This document shows, piece by piece, positions 8,296 through 43,017 of a stretch of DNA of 64,000 nucleotides. Numbering within the stretch: position 1 is the stretch's first letter; the number at the start of each line of letters is the position of its first letter. Source of the stretch: Laetmonice hystrix (taxonomy: Eukaryota). Made by a program: the position numbers and the translations under genes. A model generated the notes under the pieces. The model did not search any database. It saw nothing but the letters and a program-made list of their open reading frames with translations, and had not been told where the DNA came from. The stretch spans positions 34,598,001-34,662,000 of the forward strand of contig OZ249436.1 in the NCBI GenBank assembly GCA_965235115.1, written 5' to 3'.

Positions 8296-8365
8296 TTAAT
8301 AAACACAGACTAAAGCAGGTCGTTCTTCTGGTTTACAACATAAAAAGACGGACTCCTTGTTTGAG

Positions 8366-17400: not shown

Positions 17401-20400
17401 ATTATACTTTCTAACTCTTCGTCGTCCATCATCGACACAGTGTTGACATGGCCAAGTGGCTGGGAGATGCAAAAACCAATTGTTATTTTTCACATCACTG
17501 ATCATCAGACAGTTTATAGTCTTGTTAATGATGGTTCCGAAAAATAAATTCGTGAAAAGAGGTTTCTTAAAAGAGATACGTCATGGTAAAACAGCGCGGG
17601 AATAGGCCGATATTTTTACTAAAAATCTGTTTTGTTTCTGTGGTTGTTTAAATTTATTTAAAGCACTGGCTCAGAATGAACAATTCTAACCTCAGAGTGA
17701 GTTTTCTTTAGTTGGTCTCCGTCCACGAGCAGCTCTTTTGATCCCGTTTTGCAATCCCTCACTGTCGTCACGTCGTCTGCCTCGTTAGCCTCGTTTCCGA
17801 TACTTCCTTGAATGCCAGTCTCAGTGTGTCTGGCGAGACCTTCGACCTTGGAGCTCGGTTCGACCTTGACGATGTTTCTAGGCAGGTACATGCTCTCTAG
17901 AGCGCTGTCCATTATACTGATTGTGCTGTTCTTCAAATGGCCGTTGCTCCTCAAACTGGCGTAACTAGCAGAATTGGAACCATTCATGTTACCAGCTATG
18001 TGGAGGTGGTTGGTGTCCGTCTTTGAGAGGTCGTCCTGTTCCAGCGGACTAGCTGAGGCAGCGTCTGTTGTGGCCTTGGTCTCCTGGCCCGATCCTTCCT
18101 TTGATGTTGCACCGGTTTTTCCTTTCTTTTCCCGAGCCCTTCTCTCCTTGCGTTCTTGTTTCTCACGCTTTCGTTCCTTCTCCTTTTCGATCTGATGGAA
18201 ATAATTTTGTTTATGTTCATTTGTTATACAGATTGACACTTTATTGTTGTTTTGCTCAGTTGTTCATTCAGTTTATGAAGAATAACGCACATGTTTTTTT
18301 CTTTGTCTATTGCTATAATTAAATATATATAATATTTATAAGAGGAAGCAGCCACTGCTACGTCTAAAGAAAAGCAAGCTTTCTTTACTAATTACTAACA
18401 CGGTCACATGCACCATTATGGGGGTAATAAAATAATAATAGGCCTACAGCGTAAAACCTATCGAGAAGCCCATGGCCTCCGATGGCATTGACTGCTATAC
18501 AAGTCAGACATCATTGAAGGCTGGCTATATGAGCCCTTATTTTTCAGGGGAGCTACAATGGTGCCACATAAGAAATAATGCAAGACTCGGTGATGTAGGG
18601 TCAGATAACAGAGAGTGAAAATAAACAAAGCGGAAGCGATATGCTATCAATGAAGATCTACAGTGGTACTTGCCATTTCTCCCTTTGTCAGCAATAATAA
18701 TGATACATACAGATACAATTGATATTATTGAGTTGACGTTGAAGATATTTGTGTCGGGAACGTGACAAAACCACAATCTGGACTGAGGGCTTACTTCCGA
18801 TAATACTCACCCTGCCTGCGTTTATAGCCTCTTCCTCGTAACTCATGCTGACGACGGCCAGCATCAAATTGATCAGGTAGAATGAACCGAAGAAAACTAC
18901 GAATCCAAAGAAGATGATGTTTGCAGGCCCATTGGCACGAATGACCTAAAACCGAAGACTTATTTTATCATTCATCAGACTACAAGACGAATACCACAGT
19001 CAAATATATCAATAAATAATCATTATCGACTATTGATCCATGCCGAAGAGAAAATGTCAGTGTACCTGTATCTTTAAACCTAGACGCGTATTAATTATTG
19101 ATGGGTATATTCCAGTATCCATAATTAATAATCTAACAGACACCTTTACGTCATATAGACCAACCCCGAGGTCCAAGTTGGGGCCGAGGCCCGAGGATAT
19201 TTACTGTTATAGGGGATGTCCCAAGGACAAGTCGAATGGCCCCTCAGTTTTAGAATCATGGGGGTCCCTTGCCCCTCCCCGATTCCGGCGACTATGTTTT
19301 ACATAATCACCCCCTCCCCCCACACACACTTTGTACTCCCCCCTTAGAAGCTGGGAACATGTGTCTACTTCCGGCATTGGAAACTGACCTTATTGTACAG
19401 ATCTTCCCAAAAGTCTAATGTGATGAGTTGGAAGGCGCTGAGCATCGCCCAGCCGAAGTGATCAAAGTTTGTGTATCCGGAGTTAGGGTTGTCTCCGATG
19501 TCTGGCAGGCAGGTGTAGTTTACCGGACATCCCCTGTGGTCGAAGAAAAGTAAATCTATGCAATATTCACGTGTATGTTCAATATTCAAGGAACAATGTC
19601 GAGTCATTTATGAATAGAAGCAACACAGCTAATAAAAGTGTAAGAAATGGAAGGCACTGTGTTCAAAAGATCGTAAAAATAGTTGTCCTCTAAATGGTAG
19701 AAATAGTTTGTAGAAAATAATTGGACTTCTTCTTAATATTAGCAATACGATTTGAAACGTCTTCACCATTAACCTAATAAAAACAGGTTCTTACCCAACT
19801 CCTGTACCATTGCCACATAGTTTATATTCGTCTTCATCTAAAAACCAGTTGTCTGCAATTACGAAACATAACATCCATGAGAGCCATAATAAATCGATAT
19901 TCCGAGCCCCCTGAGGATTGTCTGGACCTACATCAGTAACCCGCCCTCTATAATTCATTGGACATATATAACGGAGGTAACGATATCTCAATAAAACCCA
20001 ATAACCCCCTTTGTATAATGGTTGTATTATAATAACTCATTATAGAATATTGGTATCGCTAGCTAGATTCCGTCCTAAACCTTTTGATTATTACTGACTT
20101 TGTAGCATTCCGCTACAATTTTGGTGCACGTAATATATTGCTAGACGACTTACCAGAATCTTTGATATACAAGGAGTATTCATAATGAGTAAGGACCGTA
20201 TTAGTTGGAATGTCCTTGACACATTTTTGACGAAGGATGCCTGCATATACTTGAAGAGCGAAGAGTGCAAAGACCATGATGCAGAAAAGCGTTAAAAACA
20301 TGACCTCGGCAAGCATCTTCATAGATTTCATCAAAGCAGCAATAATGGTTTTGAGACCTGTAAAATAAAAGAGACGGTATAAGAGTTTAACAATTATTCA

Positions 20401-23400
20401 AGACTGATTTAATTCTTTCTCCACAATACGGGAAATGGGATACATTTTCTTAGGAATTGAGGTAACCATGTTGTGTGCTTACCTGGTACTATAGAAACTG
20501 TTTTTAAAACTCTTAGAACTCGGAATGTCCGCAAACCGGTGATGTTGCCCAGGCCAGCTCCTCCTGTGGCAGCTAATATATATGTTAAATACCTAAAACA
20601 AGAATATATAGGGCTAGAGTTCCATACAGATTACCAATAGGTCTACAGTTTGTAGAAACACCTAACATTTCTATTTTGAAATTCGAATTTTATGTAGAAT
20701 ATAGTCAGTCGACTCAATAGGCGTAGTTAACGGTTAGCTGCATGGGCGGTTTTTGGTAGCCTTGATGCCCAATATATGAAGGCTATTTCTAGGTCAACTG
20801 CACTTTGGATGTGTAAGGAGTAGACGGGATATCAAAAAGATACTTACGCTGACCCTATGACTAAGAAATCTAGCCAGTTCCAACCGTCACGTAAATACGT
20901 GAACGTATTTAATACGAAGCCTCGGGCCAGTAACTTCAGTAATGCTTCCACCGAATAGATTGCCAGGAAAACATATCTAAAACAATACACAAAAAACGCT
21001 ATATTCCAACCTAGGAAAATGGACAACAACGAATACATAAAAAATAGTACTACAATGTGTGCTTATAGTTACTTCATTTCGGCACCTCAAATAACTCCGG
21101 TAGGTCAGCCGGTGAAGATTTTTGTTTATGTTTATACTTACTCGGCGACGTTTGTGAGTCCCTTGGTCTCGGGTAAAGCCAAGAAGACGCAGTTGACCAA
21201 GATGGTGAGAATGATGAAATAATCGAAGATCTGATTGGTGACTATGTACACAGCGAGACGTCTGAGCGGGTTCCATGGTGCCAGAAGGAAGAACGCTTTA
21301 GTGGCAGTGAACCGATGGATGAATGTCTTCTTGAATCTCTTGGTGATGACGACGAACGTCTATGCAAAGTGGACAAACATATAATGTTATCAGTATTTTA
21401 AGTTACCAAGATGGAATCATGTTTGAAAGTCTTTGATGTCCCTGCTAGGAAAGGCAGACCACTGTTCCTCAGGGGTGCAACACGTTCCTTCTATGAGCGT
21501 ACAGTTTTAATTCACCAGAAAACCATGGGATTGAAAATGGCCTAAGTTCAATAACACCTAAATGTATATCTAAATGTTTATTTCATCTTCAATAATAGCC
21601 AACGAGCTCCTAGCGTCGTACTTTGACTGCTTTAATTTTAGGCCTCTAGTTTCAAGCATTTCATCTAATATTCGATACAGACAAAGCAACTCAATACAAG
21701 AAGCAGACATGTTCAAAATCCCCTAAATCTTGGGATTTTGATAACTATACCGACGTAATACAAACACTCCAGCTTGGAATAATTTTGCATACGCTCTAAG
21801 CCGGCATATGGAATATAAAGCAGACGTTAGCGGTAGACTATGGGTCGTCAGCTTTCTAGTTGTCGGTATTCAAAACAAATAAAACAAAGTTAGACTTTCG
21901 GTGAAAACCATAGGAAAGGGCCCTGAAGGGTCTGGTAAATTGTTCTATTTTACGACCGCTATATAAGTGTAAGTTTCTGTGTGAAATATAATAGGCCCAG
22001 GCCCTATTGTCCATTGTGTCGTGTAGTTTTATTTTGTGACTTGTGTTCGTTTTGTGTGTGTATTTCAACCGTGAAAGCAGCATAACCATGCAGCATGCGA
22101 CTCCCTGAAGAAGAATTCATTTTCGTATTACACTGGACCAATCCTTTTTATACCATGTAGGCCTACGCAACAGCCCGCACTTTTCTCGACGTTTCCAGAA
22201 CGATCCACGATGAACCACGGTGTACAAATAATATACCTGTGACGACATGCTGTCTACACCTGTGAATATGACAATATGAACGACTATAATGTAAAAGACG
22301 TTATTGACAACGTGCCGACCACAGTGAAGGGTGCACAGCTAGACACATGGAGGATTAAGTACAATGATGTGGTAGCTGAACGCTGTGATTGGTCAGACCA
22401 GCCGGGGTCCACCGGTCCCTTACCGGTTGCTGGTCTCGGGAACACTTCACGAAGATAAACGATGGACATGAGAACGACCCGCATCTTTCCTGAAGTTCCT
22501 GCAAAACACCCATCTAGAGTGCTATCCATAATCTCATATGATAGGCCTATTAAATAGTAGTATACGTATGCTCAACCAACCCGTATAGTAGGCCTATCTG
22601 TGACAGTTACAATCGTATATGATTTATCCTGGAAGCTGGCATCTCAACAGCACGTTCCGACCCCTAGAAGTAAGAACTGATCGGGTACAACGAGAAAGGC
22701 AGAGTGATTTCAGCCCGGTATATCGAGCACGTTTCGACCCCTAGAAGTAAGAACTGATCGGGTACAACGAGAAAGGCAGAGTGATTTCAGCCCGGTATAT
22801 CGCCCATGATAACTTAAACCCCACGAAATTTGGTGGAAAGTAAAGATCCATGGCCCTGACCTTATCCCTAACCCCTAATCCCAGTCCCTACACCTCCACA
22901 ATAAATATCCCTATCCTATCCCTATCCCTATCCCTGACCTTAACCCTAACCCCTGCCCAAACATTTCGTGGAAAGTTATCATGGGGGAAGAACCTTCAGC
23001 CCTGCTATACCCATTATTATATAGAAGGTGCGTATGTGTGTCGGGAATAGTAATATTTTCACTGCGTAAAAAGGAGTAAGAAAAGTTTCATGACTTTCAA
23101 CAACTTTATTTTTAAGCCAGATTTAAGATGGGAGCTAGCCAGGGAGGCGTACAAAGCGAGATGTTCTGCTACATGGGGGTGGGGGGGGGGGGTGGGCGTC
23201 GTTCTCTCAAAACAGATGTTTGCCTAGTAATAGGGAGTGAAAGTCACAATGTTGTGGGAGTTTGCCAGTTCCGTGGAATAGGCCACTTGGCGGAAATGGT
23301 TAAAGCAATGGACCAAACCTTACGACATCCCCCACTAAGCCTATACTGCAATTATTAATTTCCAACTTTGCACAGATGATTTCTGTCACTGAATGAATCT

Positions 23401-26400
23401 TTAAATCTAGCCTCAAAATATTTTTAACTCTGCTTGTATCTTAACATGCCACGATTCTTCTATGTTTACAACTGTGCGCCATTCCCCGGAAGTGGCTCTG
23501 TTTCATCTATTATCGTCCCACTGAACGCCGTCACTTGCACGCCCTATTGCTTGTTTTAAAGAAAACTATCTCCTACTATAGTCCACTCGTTATGTATCCA
23601 CTCTAATATTATGTTGATAACTCTTTCATAAGGCGATCTACCACAGACTGTTAAAGGGCTGAAAATGAATTATGAACCGACTGCCCTTCTGACTTGACTA
23701 CCGACAAGTGATTCATTGGTCGCTGAACTATACATTTTAACTGAATATATAATCAATGTAACAAATATATCAATTAAGCGTAATAAGCCACTGTCACAAA
23801 CATCGACCAGACGTAGGTCTATATGATATACATTATGAAATTAATGACGGTAGTCAGTCGATACTGCACCGAGTCTGGCTTCCAACTTTCGGTTTGTTAT
23901 CATGAACTATTTTCCCTGGATTATTTTTAATGTATACTCCATGCGAGGTATTAATAATGTCTTAGAAATAGTTGATTAACCGGGTGTATACGCTTATTTA
24001 GTATTTCTTTCTTCAAACACGTTATCGTGACAGCAATCGGAAATTTACGTCGACATTTGCTATGTATGAACCATCTAGGGCTATATTGACATCGCATTTC
24101 ATCGTCTGGCGGCACGGGTCAATACCAAATGATGCCATCCCATTATATAATCGATTGCTTGTAACTCAAACATTTACCAAATCATATATGTGTGAAAACC
24201 TCATGGAAAAATGATTTGAGCTGTACAAGCAATCAGGCAGAGAGATCAAGCGTGACATGCTAAAGAAAAGGGGGAAAACAGAAGAGGAAGTGTGAAGTAG
24301 GGGCAAGTTTTAGTCAGGTCCATGACCTAAATGATATAATTTACTTTCCTTCTTTTAAAGCATTTGCTAAAAAAAATTATGTAGTAGCAGCCATCTTGGT
24401 AACCGTTCTCATGTCGAGTAGAGCCGTTCAGAGACATAAACGATGAGCCAAGTCGCTAAGTAAGGTTCCAAGAAAATGTGCTCTTGTGAAATATCATCTT
24501 TTGACAAATATAGGGGTTGAAGAAATCCCAAGAGAATCGTATATTGTATCATGACCTGCCAAGTACTATAAAGGGTAGCCGGCATCAGGGCCAAAATAGG
24601 CGTGCAACCGTCTATAGGTTGAGGTACATTTAACAACGGGACACAATTGTTCTTCATTGTAGGAAAGGTCTCCCAAAACTGGACATGAAGACCTAGGCCT
24701 ATTCATAGATGGCCGGCCAATTGGCATCTTATATCTTTTGACCAGCCGATACGCATGTTCTCTCCCTCTTCAAAAAACAGAAAGCTCTTGGTCTCTCCTT
24801 CTTGAAGAAGAGAGTTTCACCCAACGCGCCTCGTGGTGGGCGCAATGGGTGGAGAATTCCTTCCTCAAATTAAGACTACCCCTAACCTATCCTTAACGCT
24901 CTGTGATTGGCTATAATAATCTATAAGGACTTATCTCAGCACACCACTCGGCACGCTGCGGTGAAAACTCTCTTCTTGACGAAGCAGAGACTAACAGAAT
25001 TCTTTCCCTCTGTTTCTGGTGTTCAATGCTGTGAACAACGCTGCATTGTTCAGTGCCTCCCCGTTGAGAAATAATCACACATTATGAAATATTCATCCTG
25101 AACCGGAACGCTCACATCCGGTTGGGGCGAAATGCCGGTACACTGGGAAACCGGAATCTTGTAGTACTTGTAAGGACTACAGTGACTCATTCCCTGAGGA
25201 TGATGACCGAATCATCGATGTATACAGGGCCGTATATGCAGCCTAACATTGCTAGAGGGGAAGACCTAAGTTCAGAAGCGCACCCTGATCACAAGGATAA
25301 ATTCACACCCTTAAAAAGGGCACCTGTTCATAAAAATGATACTTTTTCACCATGATTACTGGCGGGCCCCCTGGATCCCCCACTGATATTTCATGCCCCT
25401 TTGCGCCAAATGCGTCATATTCTTTGGCGAGGAGGGAGCTGTCCCAGAGATGAGAACGAACAGCTTTGTCTCAACAAGTTTTATAAGCCCCCATTTTTAG
25501 GTGAACCTCGAGGCAGGGCATGAGTAGGCCTAACCTATAGTCCAAACGGACCGTTTTACGATACAGTACTGTTCGAGACAAGATAATTGATGGTCTTAGG
25601 AATATCGCTCAAGTTAAAAGTAGCTGCCGACAGTAGAAATATCTGTCTTATTGAGTTGAGCTTTGGTGTACAAAATGAATGACATGAAAGAAACTTTTCT
25701 AAGCTAAATAGACACCTTTAGACAGGCATCCTTTGAAAGAAACGATATTTTCATACATTATTTTTTAATTTGTTTCTGGTTGTGACAGTACATGTCAGAA
25801 AATGCTGACTGTCACAATACGCGTAGCGACTTCATTGATTCGTGTAGTCCTAGGAGAGAGGCTTAGTTATTTATACGTGTACGAACATGCATCCACAGAA
25901 AACAGTCACGGGATTCATGTCTCTTTGTTAGCCGTTATAATGAGGATAATGGGGACAAAATACTGTTGCTAGTCCAAGGTAATTTTATACTGATTCCTGA
26001 CTATGGTAACTCTATGAAAACAATGCAATATCGCATGAATATAAAACTAGTGGTCAGCTATAGCACGATTAGAGAGTTTTCAAATTCACAAGTCCATCTC
26101 TGAAGGGTTTATGCAGGAACATAAGGTAGAGATAAATCAAACATTAAGTTTTCATTAAGCATACGCTTCGCAATATTTGTATTACGTGTACCTTAGGTAT
26201 TGCAAATGGAATACGGTGTTGCAAATGGAATACTCAGCATTCAATGAAGACGAGGCCCAGTTATCTAACTCGTCCTCTAGGGACAAAAGCAGAGATAATT
26301 GAACGAACGTCAGAGAAATCAATTACACTGCATGTATACCTCAGCTAGACCGCCAGCGACAACTGACATACACCCAATGGGTAAACTGTCTCCTCATACA

Positions 26401-29400
26401 AACACAGTCATGTATACCTCAGCTATAGACCGCCAGCGACAACTGACATACATCCAATGGGTAAACTGTCTCCTCATACAAACACAGCCATGTATACCTC
26501 AGCTATAGACCGACAGCGACAACTGACATACACCCAATGGGTAAACTGTCTCCTCATACAAACACAGTCATGTATACCTCAGCTATAGACCGCCAGCGAC
26601 AACTGACATACATCCAATGGGTAAACTGTCTCCTCATACAAACACAGCCATGTATACCTCAGCTATAGACCGACAGCGACAACTGACATACATCCAATGG
26701 GTAAACTGTCTCCTCATACAAACACAGCCATGTATACCTCAGCTATAGACCGACAGCGACAACTGACATACATCCAATGGGTAAACTGTCTCCTCATACA
26801 AACACAGCCATGTATACCTCAGCTATAGACCGACAGCGACAACTGACATACATCCAATGGGTAAACTGTCTCCTCATACAAACACAGCCATGTATACCTC
26901 AGCTAGACCGCCAGCGACAACTGACATACACCCAATGGGTAAACTGTCTCCTCATACAAACACAGCCATGTATACCTCAGCTATAGACCGCCAGCGACAA
27001 CTGACATACATCCAGTGGGTAAACCGTCTCCTCATACAAACACAGCCATGTATACCTCAGCTATAGACCGCCAGCAACAACTGACATACACCCAATGGGT
27101 AAACTCTCTCCTCATACAAACACAGCCATGTATACCTCAGCTATAGACCGACAGCGACAAATGACATAGGCCTACATCCAATGGGTAAACTCTCTCCTCA
27201 TACAAACACAGCCATGTATACCTCAGCTATAGACCGACAGCGACAACTGACATAGGCCTACATCCAATGGGTAAACTGTCTCCTCATATAAACACAGCCA
27301 GCACTTTATGTGCTCCCATTGCCAAATTTATAACCTTTTCTCCGTCATTACCAGACCAAAGATATACGCCACCGTGTAGATGGACGTCGCTAGGATTTAT
27401 TTCAGGGCACACAACCTGATATGGAGGGTGGAGCCAATCACATTGGCGTTTCATATTGATACATTTTATTTTTTTCTCATATTTTCCAGGTGGCCACGTG
27501 CCCCCCCCCCCCCTCCCGAAGCCGATGCATCAGGGCCGTGGCATGGGAACATATATAAAAATGTATTTTCTATGTTTGTTTCATGAAATGTAGCTTATCA
27601 ATGAGCTTGCCAATTTGCAGTTCCCGTCACAACGCTTAGCATCGAGGATGAAACCGACAGCTGTTGATTGACGGATTAGTTGGCAAAGTGGGCGCGAGCA
27701 AACTTTCGAGAACACAGCATGTGTTTTGACGGTGCTTTTCTATCCTTTTCAGTTACCGATGACCTGGCCAAGTGGTGTTCTATCTATGAGGCTAGCCCTT
27801 GTGGCCCCCACAAGGAGGGGCGGCCGAACAGGTCACCGGATGCCAGACATCCCCACAAACGGCACGGTTATAGATGTCTCAATAGGCCGCTCGGTGTTTC
27901 AATAGGACGTGCCGTGTCGTCAATATTACATTACACTTTGCAAGGTTATGGTGGACGGCCGTGTATGAGGGACAGAGCACCGCTCGAATCTTTTGGTCGG
28001 CGCACACCTGAGCCCTGAGGTCAATGTGTTTACAGCTAGGTTTGTGTTGTTATCTGCCCTTGTTTGGAATCAAGCATCAAAGTGACCACCAACTGTGGCC
28101 TGACGAGGATACACCCTGGCTTGTACGGCGTTGTACTTTCTGTACATTATCAACTTTGTAAGGCATGCCTGTTTAAAATAATTTAAGTTTAGATTTTTTT
28201 CTTTAATTGATTTTCAGAAAAAGGATGGTACCAATCCTCACCTTGTGCATCAACTATAGGGGTTTCGTTCAGCCTATATATACTACTAAAGACATTACAT
28301 AAATAGCTTCCAGTGGCTAACATTATGTTTATAATAAACCATCACTGCTGCCTGCATTCATGGCGCGGCAGAGGGGAGCACTAGGAGCGAGACGCTACAA
28401 ATGTACTAAATTATTTAGCATGTTGTTGAAAAAAATTTATAATTCATAGAACTGAGTAAGTGACAATAGTTACAGGCAGTAATTGAACATAACAATATTG
28501 GCTGATCCCGCCCACATAACCCAACTGGCTCGAGGCAATGGATTGGTATACGGTAATCATGTGGCTGGAAGAGGAAGAGGTTCGCCTTGAGGTCTGTGGC
28601 GGCTGAGAATGGTTCGTGCTGCACAGACCACCAAATCAATCAGAAGAAATAACCGATATTATCTCCCACGGTGCTTTGTAATGCTACAGCATACCATGTC
28701 CTTGATCCGTAAGGTTGCTTTTAGCCAAATGAATGGTCGTATTGTGGAACGGCCTCAATGATGTCTGCCTTAAGATAAGTAGGGTAGGTAAGGGAATGCA
28801 CGAAGATATGTGCAGATACTCTCTGTGTGCACCTCACGTCGCAGGTTCATATTTCTATATATAACAAAGGCCACTCGAGGTGAACAAATGGGACTATCAG
28901 GTGATGTGCACTAAATGTACCAGGTTGTCACAGCGAATGCCTGAGGCAATCCACAAGCCACGTTCCACTTGAGCAATCTCCCAACAACTGTCATGAAACG
29001 AAGAGCAAGGGCAACAATATCGCTATGCTGTAGATAATACAGCAACTCTGGCCGAAAATTAAAGGAGGTCACCATTTTCTCTTCATTTAGCGGAACTATT
29101 ACGTTTTTGTGATTTCATTGTGAGTGCTAGAAAACTGTAGGTTGGATGGCGGGAACTCCTGTTACAAGTGTGCCTTCCTAAGTGCCCGACAAACCCGACA
29201 TCAAAGTGGCCACATAAAAATTCATTCAAGTAATATCATGAGAATGCTCATTTTTTCGTGTTTAATGGGACATGAGCCAAGGCTAAAAGCTTCTATATAT
29301 AGGCCCATAGTCGTCTTTTCTCATGGTACTTCATTTTTGTTCAAAACAGGTATTATGAACATCAGTATAATAATTTATGTTATAATGTAACTATGGCTGG

Positions 29401-32400
29401 AAGAACACTATAGGTATATTATTATTATTATCGCACGGCTTTTGCTATAAGAGACGATTTGGTTGTAGTTTCTTTACGTCAATCACAATACACGTAAATA
29501 TAATATAAATTAATCAAGGACAGTAATTACTCCTAATTTATCTTGGCCGTCGTTTCCTTTCCTAAGAGACCGTATGGCGAACTGTAATTCCCTTCGACTT
29601 TGCTCAGCTCCTAATACTAGGTTGTATAGGCCATACCACAGAGGACACCTAACAAATGACCGCTAAACATGGGGCAGATTTGACATGTCAGTTCTCTGCC
29701 GAACACATACCCAATCATGGCTAGCACTGAATGCTCAGCTTTTTCGAGAAGCCGACTTAGCGTTTAACCAACTGGACCTATACGTCGCGCTGGATGTCGG
29801 CCAAGATGTTATGGTAAGGCCAAAAAAAAAAATAGATTCGTTTCTTGTCCCCGCGCGCGTCACCTAAAAACCCCCGCGTCAAGTCTTTTTTTTTCAAATC
29901 CGACTGCTTCATATGGTGGGCAGTGTAGTGCTGTGACAGAACGTTGCAACGGTTCTTTGGCGTTGGCGCTTTTCTGTTAGTCTTGTTGATTTTATGTGAG
30001 TTTTACACATTCTAAAACATTGAACATCATTGCATTAGTCTTTTCTTCAAGATTTATGTACCCAACAGCAATTGCATTCGAAGAATCGGCCGTTCTCTAG
30101 TTGCATCCAAAAAAAAAAAAAGAAAGACGAAAAAAAAAAAAAAACCGCGTCACCGCACCAATTTTTTTATATGAAAGGACAAGAAACGAAACTTTTTTTT
30201 TTTTTGGCCTAAGTAACTACTTAGCTGTGGCCGGACTTGATCATATGGTCGCTTTACAACTCACACGTTAATGTCAATAACAGGGACATTCAAGCTATAA
30301 TTAAGTCTTCCTCGACGCCATTTGGAAAACGTCTTTGTTGAAGCAGTTAATACTATAAAGACCCACACAATCAATTTACATTAATGGGGGCAATGTACAT
30401 GCTGTTGTAAACAGATTATGATGATGGTTTTGATGATAACAAATGTACAAGTCGAGAAGTATTGCATGTGGATCTGTTTAGGAGTATTACAACTTACAAA
30501 CTAGTACGCTTTGTTATTAATGATGCCTGTTTGCCTATAGCCTAGTTGTATGTTTATATGATTTACATGAGGTCCGTCTAATAAGAAGTCCGTTTTGGAA
30601 CCTGGTAGACCGGACGGTTCATTTTGGTCTAGATATTTGTCAAGAGGATTTCCAAAGAGAATATAGCTATGAGTAATTATGTAATGGTGATATGTATTGA
30701 GATACACCACTGAGCTACCTCTTAGAATCAAAGAGATAAAGCCAAGGACAAAACACCATACTTGTGTCAAGTTCTGGTCACTCGCAGTCACTCGACTTTG
30801 TCGAAGAAATGAGTGGCATGCCGTAATGACGTATGGATATTGTCCCATAAGAAGACAGGGGGTTCCAGGATTTTTATAAGGGGGAGGGGCACTAACATTT
30901 TTTTAGCCTCGCTACGCCCGGCATGATTTGATTGTGCCTGTATCACACACACAGAATCACCCCTATTAACACACTTTTTCACCATTACTCACCCACTAAC
31001 ACACTTCTAAATGTTTTATTGTATTGAAATACTATATATTATTCAAATATAGTCATAGCATCTTCATTAAAAAAAGAATATCTAAGGGGGCCTGGGCCCC
31101 CTGGGCTCCTTTGAATCCCCCAGTGGACGAATAATAGCGTTATTCACTGCTGGTTTCAACAGAAATGCGCCGATTTAGTAGGTGTCATTTTTCACCAGCC
31201 TGTATACTCCCATACTGATTTTCTTATTGTGGCCAGGTTTTTCATTTCCTGTGTTTAACCCCCCGTTTCCGAGGAGATAAGCCTGTACTAACTATAATAC
31301 AGGCATTGGTATTATACCCTAATACCACCAGATGCATAGACTACGCTTTCCACCTTATTGGGCACTTATTCGACCATTGCATAATCTGCTGTCGATTTGA
31401 GATGTAGGTTCTATAAATAGACTTCTTCATAAATGTCAGACCATATACTCGCTTGTGTGACGATACATTATTCCGTATGGCGATTATGTATAGAAACTAG
31501 CTTAATATCGCAAGGATCTTATAAGCAGCCAGTATATATATAGCTATAACAGATGTAGAAAGATATAATACTGCAAATAAGACGTTTACAACTCAGCATA
31601 ATTCTGCAAAGTAATAATCGGTTTTGTTGTTTGCTTCAGTGTATGCATGGCCTCGATATAATTATTTAACATGAATTAACATATTAAACTTGAATTATTC
31701 TTAAAATGATAAATAATGAAAGAGGGTGAAGAGCCAGGAAAGTACAGCACTCACCTTATCCTTGAGCAGGTTATCGATCTCCTCAATGGGCTGACTAAAT
31801 AACTCCTTGGGAAAGTCTTGTTCGAGGTGTTCGGGTAACATATTGCCCTCCACCAGGTAAGGATCCCGAGCCTTGACTGGTTCGTCCCCATCATCCCCGC
31901 CCTCATCGTAGACCAGTTCACCATCCACAAGCCGGCCTTCTCCGGGTCCATCGGACTTCTCTATCGCCTTTCTCTTCCACTCTTCCTCCTTTTGCAGCAA
32001 ACGTTTGTAAGAGTCAACGGTAAATTTCCTGAATTGGAAAGGGGGAAGGCTTGAGGATGCGTTGCTGACTGCGTCGTCGTCCTTGGGGAGTGGTGGTTGG
32101 TCTGAATCCGGTGGTACGGCCCGGGACTGGTCTGATTCAGGTGGTACGGCCCGGGACTGGTCTGATTCAGGTGGTACGGCCCGGGACTGGTCTGTCTCAG
32201 GTGGCACGGCCTTGGACTGTTCTGATTCAGGTGGCACGGCCTTGGACTGCTCTGAGTCCGGGGGCACGGCCTTGGACTGCTCTGAGTCCAGGGGCACGGG
32301 TTTGGACTGGTCTGAGTCCAGGGGCACGGCCTTGGACTGGTCTGAGTCCAGGGGCACGGCCTTGGACTGATCCCCGATAGACCCATCTGACGCTGGAACG

Positions 32401-32588
32401 TGAATGACCTCGATGGATTCACGATCATCACTGGACTCGGACGCCGGTGGTCCATCTCCGACAGCCCCAGCAGTAGGACCAGCAGCAGGAGCAGGAGCAG
32501 CAGGAGGCACAGCCGTGGCCTTGGCAGGGGAACCGCCCTTTTTATCCTTACCCGGGCTGCTCCTTAACCCTTCTCCTTGTGCTTTCAT
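8499..32588 (-). CDS. Nav2: Voltage-gated sodium channel alpha subunit, Nav2 (DSC1/NaCP60E/BSC1-like, DEEA filter); 24 coding exons, about 2138 aa
   Basis: Exons in transcript order (plus-strand coordinates): 31755-32588, 21142-21359, 20848-20976, 20483-20592, 20154-20357, 19795-19852, 19389-19533, 18811-18945, 17691-18191, 17357-17459, 16964-17190, 16652-16816, 16334-16536, 15916-16066, 15115-15388, 14722-14861, 14256-14551, 13658-13973, 13216-13338, 12611-12889, 12109-12300, 11778-11888, 10020-10290, 8499-9730. All introns are GT-AG with matching phases; total 6417 nt. Four S4 segments; pore loops [24 protein letters not shown] and [15 protein letters not shown] linker [19 protein letters not shown]-like motif LQRAWRKH. 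Confidence 0.95.
12380..12513. mobile_element. Palindromic MITE with GGCC termini in a Nav2 intron
   Basis: ggccccggtttcaagaaactgatttg...caaatcagtttcttgaaaccggggcc forms a near-perfect foldback. Confidence 0.75.
15658..15848. repeat. Tandem repeat, about 60-bp unit, about 3 copies
   Basis: cactt(c/t)aaaagc(c/t)gaac...caaccttgtatgaa...gaat is repeated three times. Confidence 0.75.
22650..22802. repeat. Direct tandem duplication, about 77 bp x2
   Basis: gcacgtt..gacccctagaagtaagaactgatcgggtacaacgagaaaggcagagtgatttcagcccggtatatcg occurs twice. Confidence 0.85.
22803..22985. mobile_element. Foldback element with a degenerate (CCCTAA)n core
   Basis: Arms cccatgataactt...ccacgaaa and tttcgtgg...aagttatcatggg flank ccctaacc/ccctat repeats. 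Confidence 0.55.
24790..24993. mobile_element. Foldback element with a ccctaacc core
   Basis: gtctctccttcttgaagaagagagtttcacc ... ggtgaaaactctcttcttgacgaagcagagac are inverted arms. Confidence 0.6.
26331..27300. repeat. Minisatellite, 80-bp unit, about 12 copies, in the first Nav2 coding intron
   Basis: Unit catgtatacctcagctatagaccg(a/c)cagcgacaactgacataca(t/c)ccaatgggtaaactgtctcctcatacaaacacag(c/t). Period 80 (gtaaactgtc at 26461, 26541, 26621, 26701, 26781, 26861), with 78-bp and 86-bp variants. Confidence 0.95.
29818..30209. mobile_element. MITE with GGCC termini and TAA TSD (PIF/Harbinger-like)
   Basis: TIR ggcc(a)n...ttcgtttcttgtcc / ggacaagaaacgaa...(t)nggcc; TAA at 29815-29817 and 30210-30212. 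Confidence 0.75.
32097..32372 (-). repeat. Coding minisatellite, 30-bp unit x9, encoding (D/E)QS(K/R)AVP(L/P)(D/E)S in the Nav2 N-terminus
   Basis: 30-nt periodicity on the plus strand (tctgagtccaggggcacggccttggactgg and variants), in frame with the 295-aa ORF. Confidence 0.95.
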
Positions 32589-34338
32589 TGCTGATTCTCG
32601 TCTTGTCAGCTCTGTGGACTGTCGGACGTTTCCAGATCCCTGTTTGAATACGTCAGCGAGTTACTGTGATTGTCTCCCACTGACAAGGGCAAGGAAATTT
32701 GCCCGGAATGTGTATTCACAGAAGATGGTTGTAAACAATTGAGTTGTCCATGAAGGCAAATGACACCAGGTAACGATCCTCCAACGCCCATTACACAAGC
32801 GATCCGGACATCCATACCCTTCGCCCTGTTTCCATAATCGATTCCAAACTTGCACTCACAGAGACTCTGTATGGACAGGGCCTCCTTCTCTCCCCGGCAG
32901 ACTAATTTCCAACGGTAAAGGTGGTGTAGGCCTACCTTGATTTCGCAACCTTTAGGGAGTGCCACCTTTTGTGTCCATGTATAATCCGCCTGACGACGGC
33001 GGCTCAGACCAGATTTTTCACCTGGATGGTGAATGCCCCTCGCTTGTGCTTGTGTACATATATATTTAAAGCTCCATGCCGGATAGGTTAAGTCAAAAGG
33101 CTTATCCTATCTGATGAAGAACTTTATCCTTGGCCACTGAGTCAGCCAACGGTATAGAGACCAAACAACTAGCAGTAAAAATCAAATCACCATGGCCAGT
33201 AGCAACGTCAGTATTGTAGTTGACTCCTAATTTGTCCAAATTTTCTATCTGCAGTCGGTCCTCTGAACAATAAAAGAATATGTCGAGTCAAGATTCCAGA
33301 AGCGAGTCCAGGCACTTGGTAAGAAGACACTGCTGTTACTCCAGGACGTTCCTTCCGTTCTCCGGTTGTCATCCCGATACAAAAGTTACTAACTCAATAC
33401 ATCACTAGCCTTCTGATAAAACATCCCAAGATCTGAGCTGTTGTTTGCTGAGGACAAACGTGTGAAAGCCAATATGTTCTTCTTCAGTATCATCCGCCGG
33501 TGGGCTTCATGACTGACGGCTTATAGGTTACAAAATAACAGTGACGGTAAGGCGACTTCCTTGGCCTGGCCGGGGCGTTAAGCTATCGACGGTATGCCGA
33601 GTGGTCAGTGACCCGCCTTGGCAACGCGGCTATTATCCAGCTATATGTTTGTGACAACCAAGGTGGTCAACCGGTCGCCTATTGTTTGTGGGGACCAATG
33701 ATAAACTAGGACTTGGAGGCATTCCGCTTACATCACGGCTTACCGACAACTTCACACCCCTTCCAAAGTTTTTAACACGTGTTCCTTCCATTTTCTTACC
33801 GATACTCCATGCTCTGTAACATCAAACATGATCATTTGTTTATTTGTATGGTTGAGTAAGAAGTGAAAGTTTACAGGGCCGGATTTATCTCTGAGATAAT
33901 AACACGTATGCACATTCTACTGACCATTTATCATAAACAATTCATGTTTTCATTTAACTTAAATTTTTCTTATGAAAAATTAAACTATTCAAAGTTTTAA
34001 TACTAATCCGACCCCGCCCCCAAATTAAAGAATAAATGTGATCATCTCAATCGCTTTATCTGTCATTTGAAATATCTCTTGGCGTAATAAACATAATCTT
34101 AACGGGCAAACCGGACTGGTCCAGTTCAAATGGTAATCTATAGAGGGTTTTGTGACGTACCCGACAAACCCTATGATGTGAACGCTTTTCGTATGGTCAT
34201 GGGTGTTGTGGTGGTTACAGTTACAGTTTATAGTGGTACCATCCGGGCCGTAACCAGAACTTAAAAAGCGACGAGGCGAAGACAGCTCTTCTAGGGGGGT
34301 CTGGTGGCATGCTCCCCTAGAAATAGAAATCTCTTATA

Positions 34339-34600
34339 TCAATGACTCCAAAAATGCAGACATGGGCTGTTAGGTGAATGAAATTCATCGGTTTTTCGCC
34401 CGGTGAAATTCATTGATTTATATCGCTCGATGAATTTCATTGGCTGTTCAAGTCAATACCAGGTCAACTATTTTGTCAACAAACAACCATTAGACGATCG
34501 CTTCATAGCGACAATAGCGTGGGTATACATTTATTGATTTATGTAGTCTAAGGCCTTATCTAACTATACCAACCCATGTCTGCATTTTGGAGTGATTGAA
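34339..34600. repeat. Inverted repeat / MITE-like element
   Basis: tcaatgactccaaaaatgcagacatggg ... cccatgtctgcattttggagtgattga, with internal aatgaaattcatcg palindromes. Confidence 0.55.
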
Positions 34601-34999
34601 ATAAGAGATACTCGGTGATTGCTTTAATTAGGCAGCTATGTCTCTGAAACAAAACAGTCCTTCCAGAAAATGTAAACAGAGCGCTAAATAGAGACTATAA
34701 TGTATCCATTTCCAAATAAGACATAACGCTTTGTTCATGATCTAGTATAGACAAATAATGACGTTAGCCATCCATTACTTAAAGGTCGGCACAGGTGTGT
34801 CTGTGGGGGAGATGAGCTTACCAAGCCACGGAGGTCCCCCTATAATTATAATACGAGGCGTCTATCTTCAAACACCCCCTCCCCGAGACAGACAAATAGG
34901 TGTATGGTGATAACGTTGGCCTTGGATACTCTGCTTGATTGATCAAACCTAGCTCACCTATAGCGCAGCCGTCAGTATATACTGGGCATTCATTATATA

Positions 35000-35680
35000 C
35001 AGGGTGTCCCAAAAAAATGTCCAGGCCAAAACAGGCAATCTCAGAATATATGTTTCCCCGGAACCTGATGGGGACCTTACATGAAAAAATACTCTTTATA
35101 TCATGAAAATCAGTCAAGCGAATCATTTTTTTTAGCTCTAGTTCATGAACTTCATGAACTAGATCTGATTATCTGAAAAATAGGCAGTCACTGGCCGTAG
35201 TCAATTAGTCTGATGCTTATTGGGGTTGGGAGCTTTTTTTTATATCATTTTGTCCACATGTGTATGCATGGCCAAGATGGGTGGCCAACAGTTCATAACT
35301 GAGCAGCGTGTCTTTTTGGTCGAAACAGTTTGAAGGACAGGTAGGTGGTGAATGAAATGTCATTAAAAGTGAATGTTAATGTAAATGGTGTTAAGAAAAT
35401 TTATTGTAAATGATAATAGTAATTGCAAATAAAGCAAAAAATAAAGAATAAATAAAGAATAATGAAAACAAATAAAGGAAAGAAAATGCAATGAAAAATT
35501 AAGAAAAGTCACACACTCCATGCAAGTTTAGGGCTGACCTTGCCGCGCCAAAAATGATATAACTTTTGATTCGCTTGATCGATTTTGATGAAATAAAGAC
35601 TATATCTCATGTAAGAAGATTCCCCGTCAGGTTCTGGGGAAACATAGATTCTGAGATTGCTTGGTTTGGGGGACACCCTG
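35000..35680 (+). mobile_element. Tc1/mariner-superfamily non-autonomous element
   Basis: TA|cagggtgtccc ... gggacaccctg|TA, with about 120-bp imperfect TIRs. Internal relic MAKMGGQQFITEQRVFLVET* (35268-35333) resembles a transposase N-terminal HTH start. Confidence 0.8.
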
Positions 35681-38600
35681 TACAGCCACCAATTTTCCGT
35701 TCTCCCCATAGGAAATTTCTGAAGTTCATATAAAATAGACATTTCATAAATAGAGAGGCGCGCCTTGAGGCGTAGTCATATTATGGACATTCGACTATCT
35801 GCATGCGATTACAAATATTTTCTTTACTTTTTATCTTTTTTTCCTTGCGTGTTAGCCAGATTTATTAATGCACCAGGTAGACGCACATGTTTGTAAACCG
35901 CTGTGTTTGCTCCGCATAAGTCTTTTTTCATATGCACTCTATTTACATTGATTACGACATTACTTCCCCTGCGGAGCTCACACTGGCGATGTACCAGATG
36001 TCTCTGTGTTATTGCTATAGCGACGACAGAATTTGTGCGACTGTTAACCATACAAGTGAACTCAATTAGCCGTTTGGTTGCTTTGGTTTGAGTATTTCCG
36101 CAACTTGGCCGCAAATATCTCCATCTCACCCCAAAGATGTCGACAGGTATAGGCCGATCACTGGTAGACCCCAGTGAAAGCCGTCACATGAAGTTTTTTC
36201 ATATCATCAGGGACGATTCATATTTCAAACTGCTGCTGTGCGTTAGAATATGCAGCCCTTTGCATGAGCCATTGGCAGTACGCAGTGACGATACGTTCTG
36301 ACGCTCACAGAATGCGGTGAGTTCGGTCGTTCTGATTGAAGTCAGTTTGCTATTACAAAGATCTTTGAGAAATGGGTTGGAATCAGTAACGTCTTTGAAC
36401 CCACCGATATCTGGTTCCCCGACTATTCCAATGGCAGGCAGACAGAAATGATATACTTCTTTTTAATAGTCCAGACCGATCCACCGAGGTCATTCCAGTA
36501 AACCATAAAACAGGGAGAAATCTGAGTAAAGCGTCCACCCCGAAAGAAAATATAGTATCTCGCAATTTGGATAAAACTATTTCGTTTTATCTTAAAGTAC
36601 AATACATCTCGACATACGAGGTTTTCCTCCGAAACCGGCCCCTAGGTGGTTTAAATATCCCACGTAAATGCTAGGTCTGACTACATTTTCTATGGTTGTA
36701 GTAGTGTGATGGGTTTACTGAAACCAGATTAAGTCGTCTAGTGATATTTAGTACAGGCATGCTGCATGGGTAAAGGGAAAAAAGGTTCCAAGAAACTTTT
36801 GAAATAGACGGTTAGTGCAATCCTTTGAAATCAGAAATGAAGTGCATCATTATCAGTCGCCGATGCGTTTGGCCTTTCGGTTGTATATGGTCTTCTCTGC
36901 CACAAAGGTAATGACGTCAATCCCCAGAAGAAATCGTTTGCAGGTAGGAATACTTATGAGCATGCAGTTTTATCAGTGTCAAAGGAAATAACCATTTAGG
37001 ACGGCACCAATAAAAAAAAAACTTTTCGTGTCAGGGGGCTTTAGGAGATGCAAGGGGTTGTATATTGTAATAAGTTCAGCCAACAAGAAAATATAAAGAA
37101 ACTAGCATGTGGAACCCGTCCAGACGGAACTGATCTCAAAGACGACCGACCAACTCTTCAGGAATGCACGCCAGGTCAGTTTTAACCTATGATCCTGTTC
37201 CAAGTCTTCTTTTATTCGGCCAGTCCCAATCGTATTCACTCATCAGGTGTAGAATTATAGCACTCTGAGCTCGTGTCAAATTGAAAGTGCCACCTACAGC
37301 TTCAGAATGGAGGCGAGCAGAAACGTCGTCTATACGATTCGTGAGGATGGATGCTGGCACCTTATCGCGCTCGTATATTTAGGAATACAGTATCGGTAGT
37401 TGTATCGAATCAATCTATCCATTCGTCGTCATTATAATGGCTCAATGATGGAACCGTTAGAGTATACATCAAGTGTATCCTCACCAACCGGTCGATTATA
37501 TGCCACACATATTTCTACCATTGCCTTCTCACTCTGCAAGGACAGGTCCACGACACGTAGATTCCAGATCGATTTTGAAGTTATGCCCAAAAGGAAGGTG
37601 TATATGTATTTATACAGGAGAGTTTGTAGTTGAAAATTAATCCCTCTCATTACAATGAAACTGCATAATTGTTCGATTAAACAAGGTAGACTAAGTCATT
37701 TCAAGTATTATTGCTTGTTGTTTTATATTTGTTATTCCATATGGATGGGTATGGCTCTATAATGATCGATTTCCCAATCGACAACCCTGTGTATACACTA
37801 GTAACCTTTAAAGCCATCCCCAATGATGCCGTCATAGAGGCCAACAGGCCAAGTGCGGTCATGAAACACAATTGCATGTAGTATATCCTTGATATACTAC
37901 ATTCATATTGGGCTGAGGTCCGCCGTCCACTATATCTTAAGGTTGTGGTGTTTTAGCTGTCATGTCTATAAGTATCTGTATGTGTAAAACTGTTCAATTG
38001 TTCCTGTCTCACCTGTTACGATTGGCCCACGCCCACGCATCTATTGCCAGCGAAGTCAATCGATGCTAAGCCTACTCGTACGTTCTAAGATATACCTTTC
38101 TATAACGCATTTGAGATAGTAGTCAAGAAAAATAATACCCACCGTGTCCATAATGCGCCTACGTTCTGTTCATTAAATCTTCATAATGCTGCCCTTACCA
38201 GGTTCTTACACGATCCTTGTCCCTATCTCTCCATTGCGCGTGTCGGGTTAATAGTCCGGAAGGTTGTTACAGGCAGTTTTCACGGAGCGTGCCCGGAGGT
38301 GAACGATTTGTTTGAACGACACGTGGATCCGTGGATCCGTCCATCCCGATACGTTCCACACGATCTGCTGTACGTGATGGCGCTGGTCTCCATGGCGCCG
38401 GCCGGCCGGCCAGCCCGGGGGAGGGGGTCATGCTCACTAACTCCCAGGTGGATACCTCCCGTCAATGTAGACTCTAAACGTCCTGAGGGAGATCAAGTCC
38501 CACCACGCGTCGGTCGATTCGGCGGCGTGTTGTATAGACAGGGAGATGGAGAGTATCGAGGCCATAAGTAAAGAAAAGACGGAGGGGGCTTGTGTCGAAG

Positions 38601-38688
38601 TTGAAAGTATATGTCACTAGCACGTGGTTGTCAGGGCGGCGTCCTCTGAACACCTTCATACGTGCACATGCCATAACGAAGCTGGCCG

Positions 38689-38697
38689 TATATATAG
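38689..38697 (-). promoter_or_regulatory. Candidate TATA box for a distal Nav2 first (non-coding) exon
   Basis: On the minus strand, ctatatatac is followed by a GC-rich stretch that ends in the donor TG|GTAAGG at 38199/38198. The assignment is inference only. Confidence 0.25.
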
Positions 38698-38868
38698 ATT
38701 TAGAACCGAGTGAACCCTTTGTCTACCTGTGTAGGCCTATATATAATGAGTAGACTAGTTACAGGCTCGTGGCCCTACAAATATAGTCACCCGAGAACCA
38801 GATCTTGCATGGGTTGTTTTTGTTATATTTTCACTATACCAAGCCTTGCATTTCTCCGAAACTGTTAA

Positions 38869-40007: not shown

Positions 40008-40547
40008 TTAAATGAGAATTACGGTATTCTCCTTTGATAAATACGGCCCAAATAATCCATACCACGGAGTGGGCTATGTTAAAAAAATAGAAATTCTATT
40101 GACATTAAAAGAGTGTTAATTTTAGTGCACATGTGTAGACTCTCTACTAACAGATTTCCAAGTCCCCCTAGAATGGAGGTGTGACGGATCTGCACTCCAA
40201 AAGCCTAAAGTCCGTGATATTGTATTATATCAATATATCTTCATAATCCTGCATGTCCAGGGATTCCTGGTCTGGCGGACTTCCATTCCGGTTGACTTGC
40301 ATTGCTTTCACACCTGCGGTGCCCAACTGGACCACCCCCATCTCGGCTGACGCTAGGTGGCGCGTCTAGCATGCTGTAAGCGCCATCTTTCGTTACGTGA
40401 ACAAGTTATTTTGAAACCTCAATGCCTCTCTGAGTCACCCGTCTCTGCACGCTCACGATCGCGCCCATTTAAAAAATATTCTTGCCCATTTGCTGAAATG
40501 ACCGCTCATTGATCCTGCACGGGACCATTGGTAAGCCACAGGGGACC

Positions 40548-40668
40548 AGGGACCTTATTCACAAAGCACACGCAAAGCTTACGGGACCGTAAAGCTATTA
40601 TCCTCCCGTTGTTTAATAATAGTTTGCGGGTCCCCAAGTCCTACGTATCCTTTGTGAATAAGGTCCCG
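40548..40668. mobile_element. Palindromic MITE
   Basis: gggaccttattcacaaag ... ctttgtgaataaggtccc are foldback arms. Confidence 0.7.
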
Positions 40669-42777: not shown

Positions 42778-42946
42778 CAGTAGCGTACCGGGGGGGGGGG
42801 GGGTGCTTGTGGTGCTCAAGCACCCCCCTCAATTTGCCCAATCTTTTTTGTGCGGTTGTTGCCCACAGCCCCCTCACAATTTGCAGCGCCTACGACATTG
42901 GTTATTTCCAGCACCCCACTGGGTCCAGTTTCTGGGTAGGCCACTG
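42778..42946. mobile_element. CAG-ended MITE with 5-bp TSD
   Basis: cagtagcgtacc...ggtaggccactg; TSD AAATG at 42773-42777 and 42947-42951. Confidence 0.7.
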
Positions 42947-43017
42947 AAATGTCCTTGAAATTAACATTGCCTGAATTAGGGATGTCGCCAGGGAGGGACA
43001 TGTTAGTGGAACATTTT

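What the first reader, a model, noticed from the sequence alone, without database searches (positions are those of the whole stretch)
27167..27260. TAGGCCTA is hugely over-represented, and a minisatellite shows it arising as a GGCCTA insertion at TA
Seen: about 38 TAGGCCTA copies by eye (e.g. 216, 999, 1008, 3218, 5642, 6068, 7734, 18439, 22158, 22542, 22589, 24694, 25525, 32927, 38732, 41462, 41979, 42110, 44112, 44192, 46091, 47997, 49119, 52161, 57239). Roughly one is expected for an 8-mer in 64 kb at about 40% GC. Only one (8588) lies in a CDS. In the 80-bp array most units read gacaTA-catcc or gacaTA-caccc, but the last two read gacaTA-GGCC-TA-catcc (27167-27174, 27253-27260): TA duplicated with GGCC between. 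TAGCCTA and TAGGCTA variants also occur (about 1023, 17268, 48601, 49058, 49114). Established: TA-targeting cut-and-paste transposons leave TA + a few terminal bases + TA on excision. Inference: these are footprints of a very active element with GGCC ends, or of another site-specific micro-insertion process, that has written a palindrome across non-coding DNA. The two array copies probably descend from one event.
Basis: partly seen in the sequence, partly recalled or inferred. Interest (0 to 1): 0.75.

Follow-up and report, generated by a model that had tools for sequence, protein, structure and literature searches.

The report
Transposon excision scars at TA sites
The eight-letter palindrome TAGGCCTA is about 40 times too common in this invertebrate DNA and, where an unaltered copy can be compared, sits as an insertion at a plain TA, so it is most likely the scar left when a cut-and-paste jumping gene with G-G ends cuts itself out: a known kind of scar at unusual density.

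Summary
TAGGCCTA occurs 39 times; 0.7 to 1.4 are expected from shuffles and low-order backgrounds. One copy lies in coding DNA. Two of 12 array units carry exactly GGCCTA added at a TA. A second site (3218) is 8 bases longer than its paralogue. The duplicated target is TA, which rules out TAA/TTA-targeting elements for the array site.

New here is a candidate donor family: a 773-bp non-coding element (46756-47528) with GG...CC ends and TA on both sides. Contigs show its empty site with a single TA. Keeping two bases from each end gives TA-GG-CC-TA.

Against it: the one-end scars typical of Tc1/Tc3 (TAGGTA/TACCTA) are not enriched; no transposase was found; no locus was seen both occupied and scarred; and 9 of 9 sites spanned by listed contigs kept the motif.

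The scan has reported this motif before in the same genome (e1-7908793) and analogues in diatoms. Verdict: real, likely Tc1/mariner-type footprints, a new variant of a known kind, interest 0.42.

The parts
27167..27174 (.). TAGGCCTA in array unit 11: GGCCTA added at the TA of GACA-TA-CA
   Evidence: 86-bp unit against 80-bp units; 6-nt gap in every alignment to a plain unit
27253..27260 (.). TAGGCCTA in array unit 12, probably copied from the same event
26331..27300 (+). 80-bp minisatellite, 12 units, in the intron between the sodium-channel exons mapped at about 31728-32288 and 21174-21359; serves as a built-in before/after control
3216..3225 (.). Second insertion site: TA-TA-GGCC-TA where the paralogous repeat copy at 39906-40012 has one TA (+8 nt: an extra TA plus GGCCTA)
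   Evidence: blastn 75% over 115 nt, E 3e-13; MAFFT
46754..47530 (.). Element A: 773-bp non-coding TIR element (46756-47528), ends GGGGAAAGCGGGGCAT on both sides, TA on both flanks, seven subterminal/internal GGGGYA-n-GGGAC-like boxes; candidate donor family
   Evidence: TIR search; empty site in 3 contigs of X1 and 2 of X3 (table 7); no transposase family hit in its ORFs
216..57246 (.). The 39 dispersed TAGGCCTA copies, with unrelated flanks, densest at 44-52 kb (15 of 38 in two 4-kb bins)
8588..8595 (-). Only coding copy, reading Ser-Arg-Pro-Thr in the poorly conserved tail of the sodium channel; insertion or chance cannot be told
29815..30212 (.). Element B: 392-bp TIR element (29818-30209) with GGCC ends and TAA on both flanks; considered as donor and rejected for the array site

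Best explanation
TAGGCCTA marks places where six bases (GGCC plus a second TA) sit added at a plain TA, and these are most likely scars left by the excision of TA-targeting cut-and-paste transposons of the Tc1/mariner/pogo group whose ends begin with GG. Steps: (1) an element inserts at TA and duplicates it (shown for element A by its empty site); (2) the transposase cuts two bases inside each end, leaving GG on each flank (inferred from Tc1, Tc3 and ISY100); (3) germline end-joining keeps both overhangs, giving TA-GG-CC-TA (inferred); (4) scars persist outside exons, decay by point mutation and are sometimes copied inside repeats (seen for the array and for two sites in a high-depth repeat; decay inferred from the excess of one-mismatch words). 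About 0.78 that these are excision scars; the two-plus-two geometry from a family like element A takes about 0.45 of that, and the self-annealing geometry (first rival) about 0.3.
For: Insertion at TA in 2 independent places (array; site 3218). The duplication is TA exactly, not TAA/TTA or TAC. Flanks of the 39 copies are unrelated, so this is not one repeat family. The flanking base is biased: C follows the motif in 33 of 76 half-sites against 15.9 expected, chi-square P = 2e-5. That fits a G-TA-C target preference, as at element A's own site (G-TA-C) and as reported for the pogo element Passer (AAGTACTT; PMC9976928, passages). Element A has GG...CC ends, TA on both flanks and an empty site; contig depth over it is 7,000-16,000 against 20-60 on single-copy pieces, and a 214-nt internal contig of depth 3,810 differs from the window by one base, so the family is probably young and abundant (depth is not a copy number). 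Published biochemistry: two-base 3' overhangs at Tc1 breaks (PMC4490562, Fig. 1 legend); cuts two bases inside ISY100 ends (PMC2170065); mariner-type footprints keep both TAs plus element bases (PMC4561436; PMC1925063).
Against: The usual scars of two-base cutters keep one end only: TACATA and TATGTA for Tc3 (10.1101/659086) and a +4 scar in 78% of somatic Tc1 excisions (PMC13148408). The equivalents here, TAGGTA/TACCTA, are not enriched (28 against 24-29). Germline Tc1 scars (26 products in 103 animals) and rice excision scars (8 perfect of 94) are very varied, whereas one word dominates here. No transposase in 122 ORFs scanned against Pfam. No locus was seen with element, scar and empty state together. 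No GGCCTA indel among the 12 of 131 indel rows shown, and 9 of 9 spanned sites kept the motif. The second flanking base is mostly A (0.40), not the T of the Passer consensus. Only two insertion events were actually aligned.
Confidence: 0.75

Rival explanations
1. Same kind of scar, different donor: a TA-targeting family ending in GGC (three-base overhangs that anneal through their GC) or GGCC (four-base self-complementary overhangs; the first reader's version). Sticky ends would give one uniform scar. This is a sub-case counted inside the 0.78 for excision scars.
For: Explains why one +6 word dominates while TAGGTA/TACCTA is flat, and why TAGCCTA/TAGGCTA, the canonical three-base scars of a GGC end, are enriched about 2.5-fold (12 against 4.3-5.4). 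Precedent: ISY100's self-complementary overhangs religate efficiently to one junction, TATATA (PMC2170065). A 6-bp Minos excision insertion is on record (PMC6980720); its four-base make-up is recalled, not read.
Against: No TA-flanked element with GGC or GGCC ends was found among all TAGG...CCTA pairs up to 12 kb apart or among all TA-flanked inverted ends; only 64 kb was searched. GG(G/C)CC ends are listed for Harbinger elements with TAA/TTA targets (PMC4423477 Table 1), and the one GGCC-ended element here has TAA flanks.
Confidence: 0.3
2. Scars of TAA/TTA-targeting elements with GGCC ends (Zator- or Harbinger-like, such as element B), trimmed during repair.
For: Element B has GGCC ends and lies 2.5 kb from the array.
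Against: The array's empty site (GACA-TA-CA) has no TAA or TTA. TAAGGCCTAA and TTAGGCCTTA occur 0 times. The commonest flank is G/C, not T/A. Zator duplicates TAA/TTA (PMC12905397); Harbinger-type elements usually excise precisely (PMC4561436).
Confidence: 0.04
3. A repair or replication quirk unrelated to transposons (template switching, hairpin-derived palindromic filler, or a nuclease with a fixed filler) writes GGCCTA at TA.
For: The word is a perfect palindrome and unusually uniform, and no donor transposase has been tied to it.
Against: GG is not copied from the flanks at either aligned site, which excludes flank-derived palindromic bases of the Ac/Ds type (PMC4561436). Other TA-NNNN-TA palindromes are not enriched: 13 tested, the highest TACATGTA at 5 against 2.0. 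No such fixed-filler mechanism is known to me.
Confidence: 0.12
4. The motif is a protein-binding site or part of repeat ends, built up by substitution and selection or by repeat copying, not by insertion.
For: Sites 49119 and 49533 lie in the consensus of a repeat of depth 1,900-2,940; sites cluster in the repeat-rich 44-52 kb stretch; 37 of 39 copies have no aligned empty counterpart.
Against: Both aligned cases are insertions; flanks are unrelated; about 1% of all non-coding TAs carry the motif, with no fixed distance to exons.
Confidence: 0.06

Closest known systems
Excision footprints of Tc1 and Tc3 (C. elegans) and ISY100: two-base cutters (PMC4490562, PMC13148408, PMC2170065, 10.1101/659086; passages read)
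   Same: TA target kept twice, with terminal element bases between; two-base overhangs would give GG and CC from element A.
   Different: Their commonest scars keep one end's two bases (+4); here the word with both (+6) dominates and the +4 words are not enriched. Theirs were seen at single reporter loci, not as the top k-mer of a genome.
Sleeping Beauty footprints TACAGTA/TACTGTA and Passer (pogo superfamily) footprints of 0-4 bp (10.1101/659086; PMC9976928; passages read)
   Same: TA plus a few terminal bases plus TA; Passer's target has G before and C after the TA, as is favoured here.
   Different: Different terminal bases; a mixture of scars; the second flanking base does not match Passer's consensus.
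Historical Stowaway/mariner footprints read from plant genomes (PMC1925063; PMC4423477; passages read)
   Same: Scars inferred from sequence comparison; repeated hits at one TA, as at site 3218.
   Different: Varied scars with frequent deletions and filler; no single dominant word.
Zator and PIF/Harbinger elements (PMC12905397; PMC4423477 Table 1; passages read)
   Same: Element B has GGCC ends and a TAA duplication, like the Harbinger row of that table; Zator also duplicates TAA/TTA.
   Different: Three-base target, which the array site lacks.

Membership tests
Tc1/mariner/pogo (ITm) excision footprint | Target TA present twice around the added bases, once at the empty site | tested here: met
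   Array units 11-12 against 1-10; site 3218 has one further TA
Tc1/mariner/pogo (ITm) excision footprint | Added bases match the ends of a TA-flanked TIR element of the same genome | tested here: inconclusive
   Element A supplies GG and CC, but only if two bases of both ends are kept; no GGC/GGCC-ended TA element found in 64 kb
Tc1/mariner/pogo (ITm) excision footprint | One locus seen as occupied, scarred and empty | tested here: inconclusive
   Occupied and empty seen for element A, scarred and empty seen for the array and 3218, never all three; the read tables were cut to 12 of 131 indel rows
Tc1/mariner/pogo (ITm) excision footprint | Canonical one-end scars accompany it | tested here: not met
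   TAGGTA/TACCTA 28 against 24-29; TAGCTA 8 against 8.5-9.6; only TAGCCTA/TAGGCTA is raised. This is typical of studied elements, not a strict criterion.
Element A as a non-autonomous ITm element | Terminal inverted repeats and a TA target duplication | tested here: met
   16-nt perfect ends, 20 of 22 matching; empty site with one TA in 5 contigs of two runs
Element A as a non-autonomous ITm element | A DDE/D transposase with the same ends | tested here: inconclusive
   No transposase family in 122 window ORFs; end-pattern scans of viral, metagenome and prokaryote collections gave no coding element. The host genome is not held, so the subfamily (pogo-like is a recalled lead) is unassigned.
Zator / PIF-Harbinger footprint | TAA or TTA target duplication | tested here: not met
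   Array site GACA-TA-CA; 0 TAAGGCCTAA or TTAGGCCTTA
hAT (Ac/Ds)-type hairpin footprint | Added bases are an inverted copy of the flank | tested here: not met
   GG/CC absent from the flanks at both aligned sites

The most novel reading that the evidence does not exclude
This animal's germline repairs nearly all excision breaks of one transposon type to a single 6-base, frame-preserving scar, either because both overhangs are kept or because an undescribed TA-targeting family has self-complementary ends. About 1% of non-coding TA sites would then be a countable, datable fossil record of past transposon jumps, and the top enriched word of an unannotated genome would reveal the ends of its most active elements.
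Probability: 0.35. Interest if true: 0.68.

Novelty: new variant of a known kind. Interest (0 to 1): 0.42.

Why it matters
Excision is the half of cut-and-paste transposition that genome annotation normally cannot see. If these are scars, this window holds one per 1.4 kb of non-coding DNA (38 in about 52.6 kb; about 1% of non-coding TAs). That would make transposon turnover a major source of small insertions here and would let past excisions be counted and dated. One dominant two-ended scar also differs from the varied or one-ended scars reported in worms, cultured cells and rice, so it bears on how this germline joins broken ends. In practice the word will appear as a false regulatory motif in motif searches. 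The idea itself is established, and this scan has already noted the motif in this genome.

Tried and rejected
Whole-genome tests: no genome is held, so all counts are for 64 kb.

Polymorphism: the one read-laying run (41200-53000, 20 of the 39 sites; three contig sets under one sample label and one study, possibly the assembly's own source) was swamped by repeats. It showed 12 of 131 indel rows, none a GGCCTA indel, and 24 of about 59,850 pieces. These span 9 sites, and none has room for a 6-base deletion. At 51814, 52161 and 52478 the X1 and X2 contigs differ from the window at 11 and 14 of 1,088 bases yet lack no six bases (net +4 with 4 gap letters; net +2 with 10). The other 11 sites are untested.

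Paralogues: self-alignment and an empty-site search gave counterparts only for the array and 3218, and none for the 12 seven-letter variants.

Coding copy at 8588: the tail of the channel is too divergent among 10 relatives to show a two-residue insertion.

Autonomous partner of element A: the end pattern gave 3 viral and 9 metagenome loci. Ten look like chance matches in phage, bacterial or fungus-like DNA. L008 and L009 resemble one such end in eukaryote-like repeat DNA, but no second end was found and they hold 0 TAGGCCTA. Longer degenerate patterns gave 0 hits. No look-alike of element A among the scan's notes.

Paired-motif scan of prokaryote genomes: 121 loci; of the 77 held at 4 kb or more, one contig was dense, with an unrelated repeat.

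Longer partial scars (TAGG-n-CCTA, n = 1-24): 22 matches, no recurring form.

Literature: ten searches. The motif occurs in 283 papers; none of the 40 listed titles concerns a genomic excess. No listed paper or 68 describes footprints as a genome-wide k-mer signature. The library lacks most subscription papers and Repbase. The FASTA supplements of PMC7325037, which hold element sequences, could not be read and may bear on the family of element A.

Full report
Setting. The window is eukaryotic DNA of 44% GC. It holds a multicopper oxidase exon (1134-2714), a voltage-gated sodium-channel gene on the minus strand (exons mapped from about 8500 to 32300), a Ras-family exon near 50140, a phosphotransferase-like gene and LamG/PKD exons. 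The best full-length named relatives of the channel's last exon are from an annelid and two nemerteans (62-65% identity), so the host is probably a lophotrochozoan invertebrate. No whole genome is held.

TAGGCCTA occurs 39 times against 0.70 in dinucleotide shuffles and 0.8-4.5 under Markov orders 1-4. With the array masked and the motif removed from the background, 37 are seen and 0.7-0.8 expected. The 39 copies have unrelated flanks. One of 38 sites lies in about 11.4 kb of roughly mapped coding DNA, against 4.6 expected from TA content (P = 0.045); about 1% of non-coding TAs carry the motif. Of 13 other TA-NNNN-TA palindromes tested, none is clearly enriched; the highest is TACATGTA, 5 against 2.0. 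The seven-letter TAGCCTA/TAGGCTA is raised about 2.5-fold (12 against 4.3-5.4). One-mismatch neighbours are 41 against 17.5-19.8, which suggests older, decayed copies (inference). Contigs of three public runs carry the motif at the 9 sites that listed pieces span, so it is not an assembly error.

It is an insertion at TA. In the 12-unit array, units 11 and 12 read GACA-TA-GGCC-TA-CA and the other ten GACA-TA-CA. The duplication is exactly TA: a three-base duplication (ATA, TAC, TAA or TTA) does not fit. The two copies sit at the same one of seven TAs in adjacent units, so one event followed by unit copying is simplest, though the units differ at three other positions. A second, independent case is site 3218. 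The window has AAAG-TA-TA-GGCC-TA-CG and a paralogous repeat at 39906 has AAAG-TA-CG, a difference of 8 bases: an extra TA plus GGCCTA. No other site had an alignable counterpart in the window. GG is not present in the flanks at either site, so the added bases are not an inverted copy of neighbouring DNA. The base beside the motif is biased: C follows in 33 of 76 half-sites against 15.9 expected (P = 2e-5), which looks like a target preference.

Candidate donors. A search of all TAGG...CCTA pairs found one element with G-G ends and TA on both sides that is not just an internal match between repeat copies: element A, 46756-47528, 773 bp, with 16 perfectly matching terminal bases and seven GGGGYA-n-GGGAC-like boxes. 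In the laid contigs, three of run X1 and two of run X3 continue from 46755 straight into the bases that follow the right-hand TA. That is the empty site, with one TA (table 7); these contigs may be other copies of the host repeat and not the other allele. Depth over the element is two orders of magnitude above single-copy pieces, and an internal contig differs from the window by 1 of 214 bases, so the family is probably young and abundant; depth is not a copy number. It codes for no recognisable protein, and no transposase was found in 122 ORFs of the window (of 173 of at least 75 codons, plus shorter ones in the two elements). Element B, 29818-30209, has GGCC ends but TAA flanks. That pattern fits Harbinger (GG(G/C)CC ends, TAA/TTA target; PMC4423477 Table 1) or Zator (TAA/TTA; PMC12905397). 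Its predicted scars occur 0 times, and it cannot explain the array site.

How it most likely works. Tc1/mariner-type transposases insert at TA and duplicate it. On excision they cut a few bases inside each end: two for Tc1 and ISY100 (PMC4490562; PMC2170065), three for Sleeping Beauty (10.1101/659086). The flanks keep both TAs plus element bases (PMC4561436). For an element starting GG and ending CC, joining the two flanks with both overhangs kept gives TA-GG-CC-TA. Shown here: the insertion at TA, the duplication, and an element with the right ends and target. Inferred: the cut positions, the repair step, and that element A's family is a donor. The G-TA-C preference matches element A's own site and the centre of the pogo element Passer's target, AAGTACTT (PMC9976928), but the next base out is mostly A here.

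What does not fit. For two-base cutters the commonest published scars keep one end only: TACATA/TATGTA for Tc3 and +4 in 78% of somatic Tc1 excisions (PMC13148408). The matching words here, TAGGTA/TACCTA, are at background (28 against 24-29). Germline Tc1 and rice scars are very varied. ISY100's self-complementary overhangs do religate to one junction, and the mild excess of TAGCCTA/TAGGCTA fits GGC ends. No such TA-flanked element was found in 64 kb, so this stays a live rival (about 0.3, against 0.45 for two-plus-two). No locus was seen in all three states.

Activity and counting. Current activity is not shown. Of the 20 sites in the laid stretch, 9 were spanned by listed contigs and all kept the motif, including three in single-copy DNA where two runs carry an allele about 1% different from the window. 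Only 12 of 131 indel rows were shown, none a GGCCTA indel. Sites 49119 and 49533 lie in the consensus of a high-depth repeat, so motif counts overstate the number of events. The three runs share one sample label and may be the assembly's source.

Literature and earlier notes. I read passages (term look-ups, not whole texts) of PMC13148408, PMC7325037, PMC2170065, 10.1101/659086, PMC4490562, PMC12905397, PMC4423477, PMC4561436, PMC9976928, PMC6980720 and PMC1925063; all other papers were seen as search listings only. Footprints of this kind are established. Ten searches listed no paper describing TAGGCCTA as a genomic excess or footprints as a genome's top k-mer, but the library is partial and the FASTA supplements of PMC7325037 could not be read. 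The scan has an earlier report of the same motif 29 Mb away in this genome (e1-7908793), which did not find the main donor, and analogous TACCGGTA reports from diatoms. These are unchecked notes and are not counted as support. My first reading was recorded before seeing them.

Verdict. Real, and most likely Tc1/mariner/pogo-type excision footprints (about 0.75-0.8). It works like such a footprint; membership is met for the TA duplication and unproven for the donor. What this window adds is two aligned insertion events, exclusion of three-base-target elements, a target-flank bias and a concrete candidate family with a verified empty site. New variant of a known kind; interest 0.42.

Noticed in passing
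window 29815-30212: 392-bp TIR element with GGCC-poly(A) ends and a TAA duplication, Zator- or Harbinger-like.
   Followed up: partly
window 35000-35680: 681-bp element flanked by TA with CAGGGTGTCCC ends and long subterminal inverted arms; Tc1-like ends (recalled label). Its two-plus-two scar would be TACATGTA, seen 5 times against 2.0 expected, P about 0.05.
   Followed up: partly
window 7041-8299 and 55291-55834: Two TIR elements with TTAA at or near their tips (24-nt perfect arms; 29-nt arms at 93%), resembling Kolobok- and piggyBac-type ends (labels recalled).
   Followed up: no
window-wide: TACCGTA (13 against 5.3) and TAATGTA/TACATTA (26 against 13.9) are also enriched; they may be ends or scars of other TA-targeting families.
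   Followed up: partly
window 26345 and 26903 (array units 1 and 8): These two units have TA where the others have TATA, a 2-base indel from slippage or a precise-excision scar.
   Followed up: no
window 32098-32369: 30-bp tandem repeat (9 copies) inside the long ORF that holds the channel's first mapped exon, coding 10-residue repeats.
   Followed up: no
window 39115-39690, 43207-43806, 45293-45737: Several 92-94% identical copies of one high-depth repeat in both orientations.
   Followed up: no
window 42778-51482 and 56377-56410: Many poly-G/poly-C runs, often next to CAGGGCCGTAGC/CAGGCCCGTAG-type element ends; poly-C is the other top k-mer.
   Followed up: no
   Followed up: no
L008 797-814, L009 848-865: Metagenome contigs with eukaryote-like repeat DNA carry the same TA plus 16-nt end as element A; no second end within the contigs and no TAGGCCTA.
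   Followed up: partly
L075/L076 (one bacterial MAG contig): 27 TAGGCCTA in 20 kb, inside low-complexity TAGGC/TATGC-rich repeat patches; a different phenomenon.
   Followed up: no
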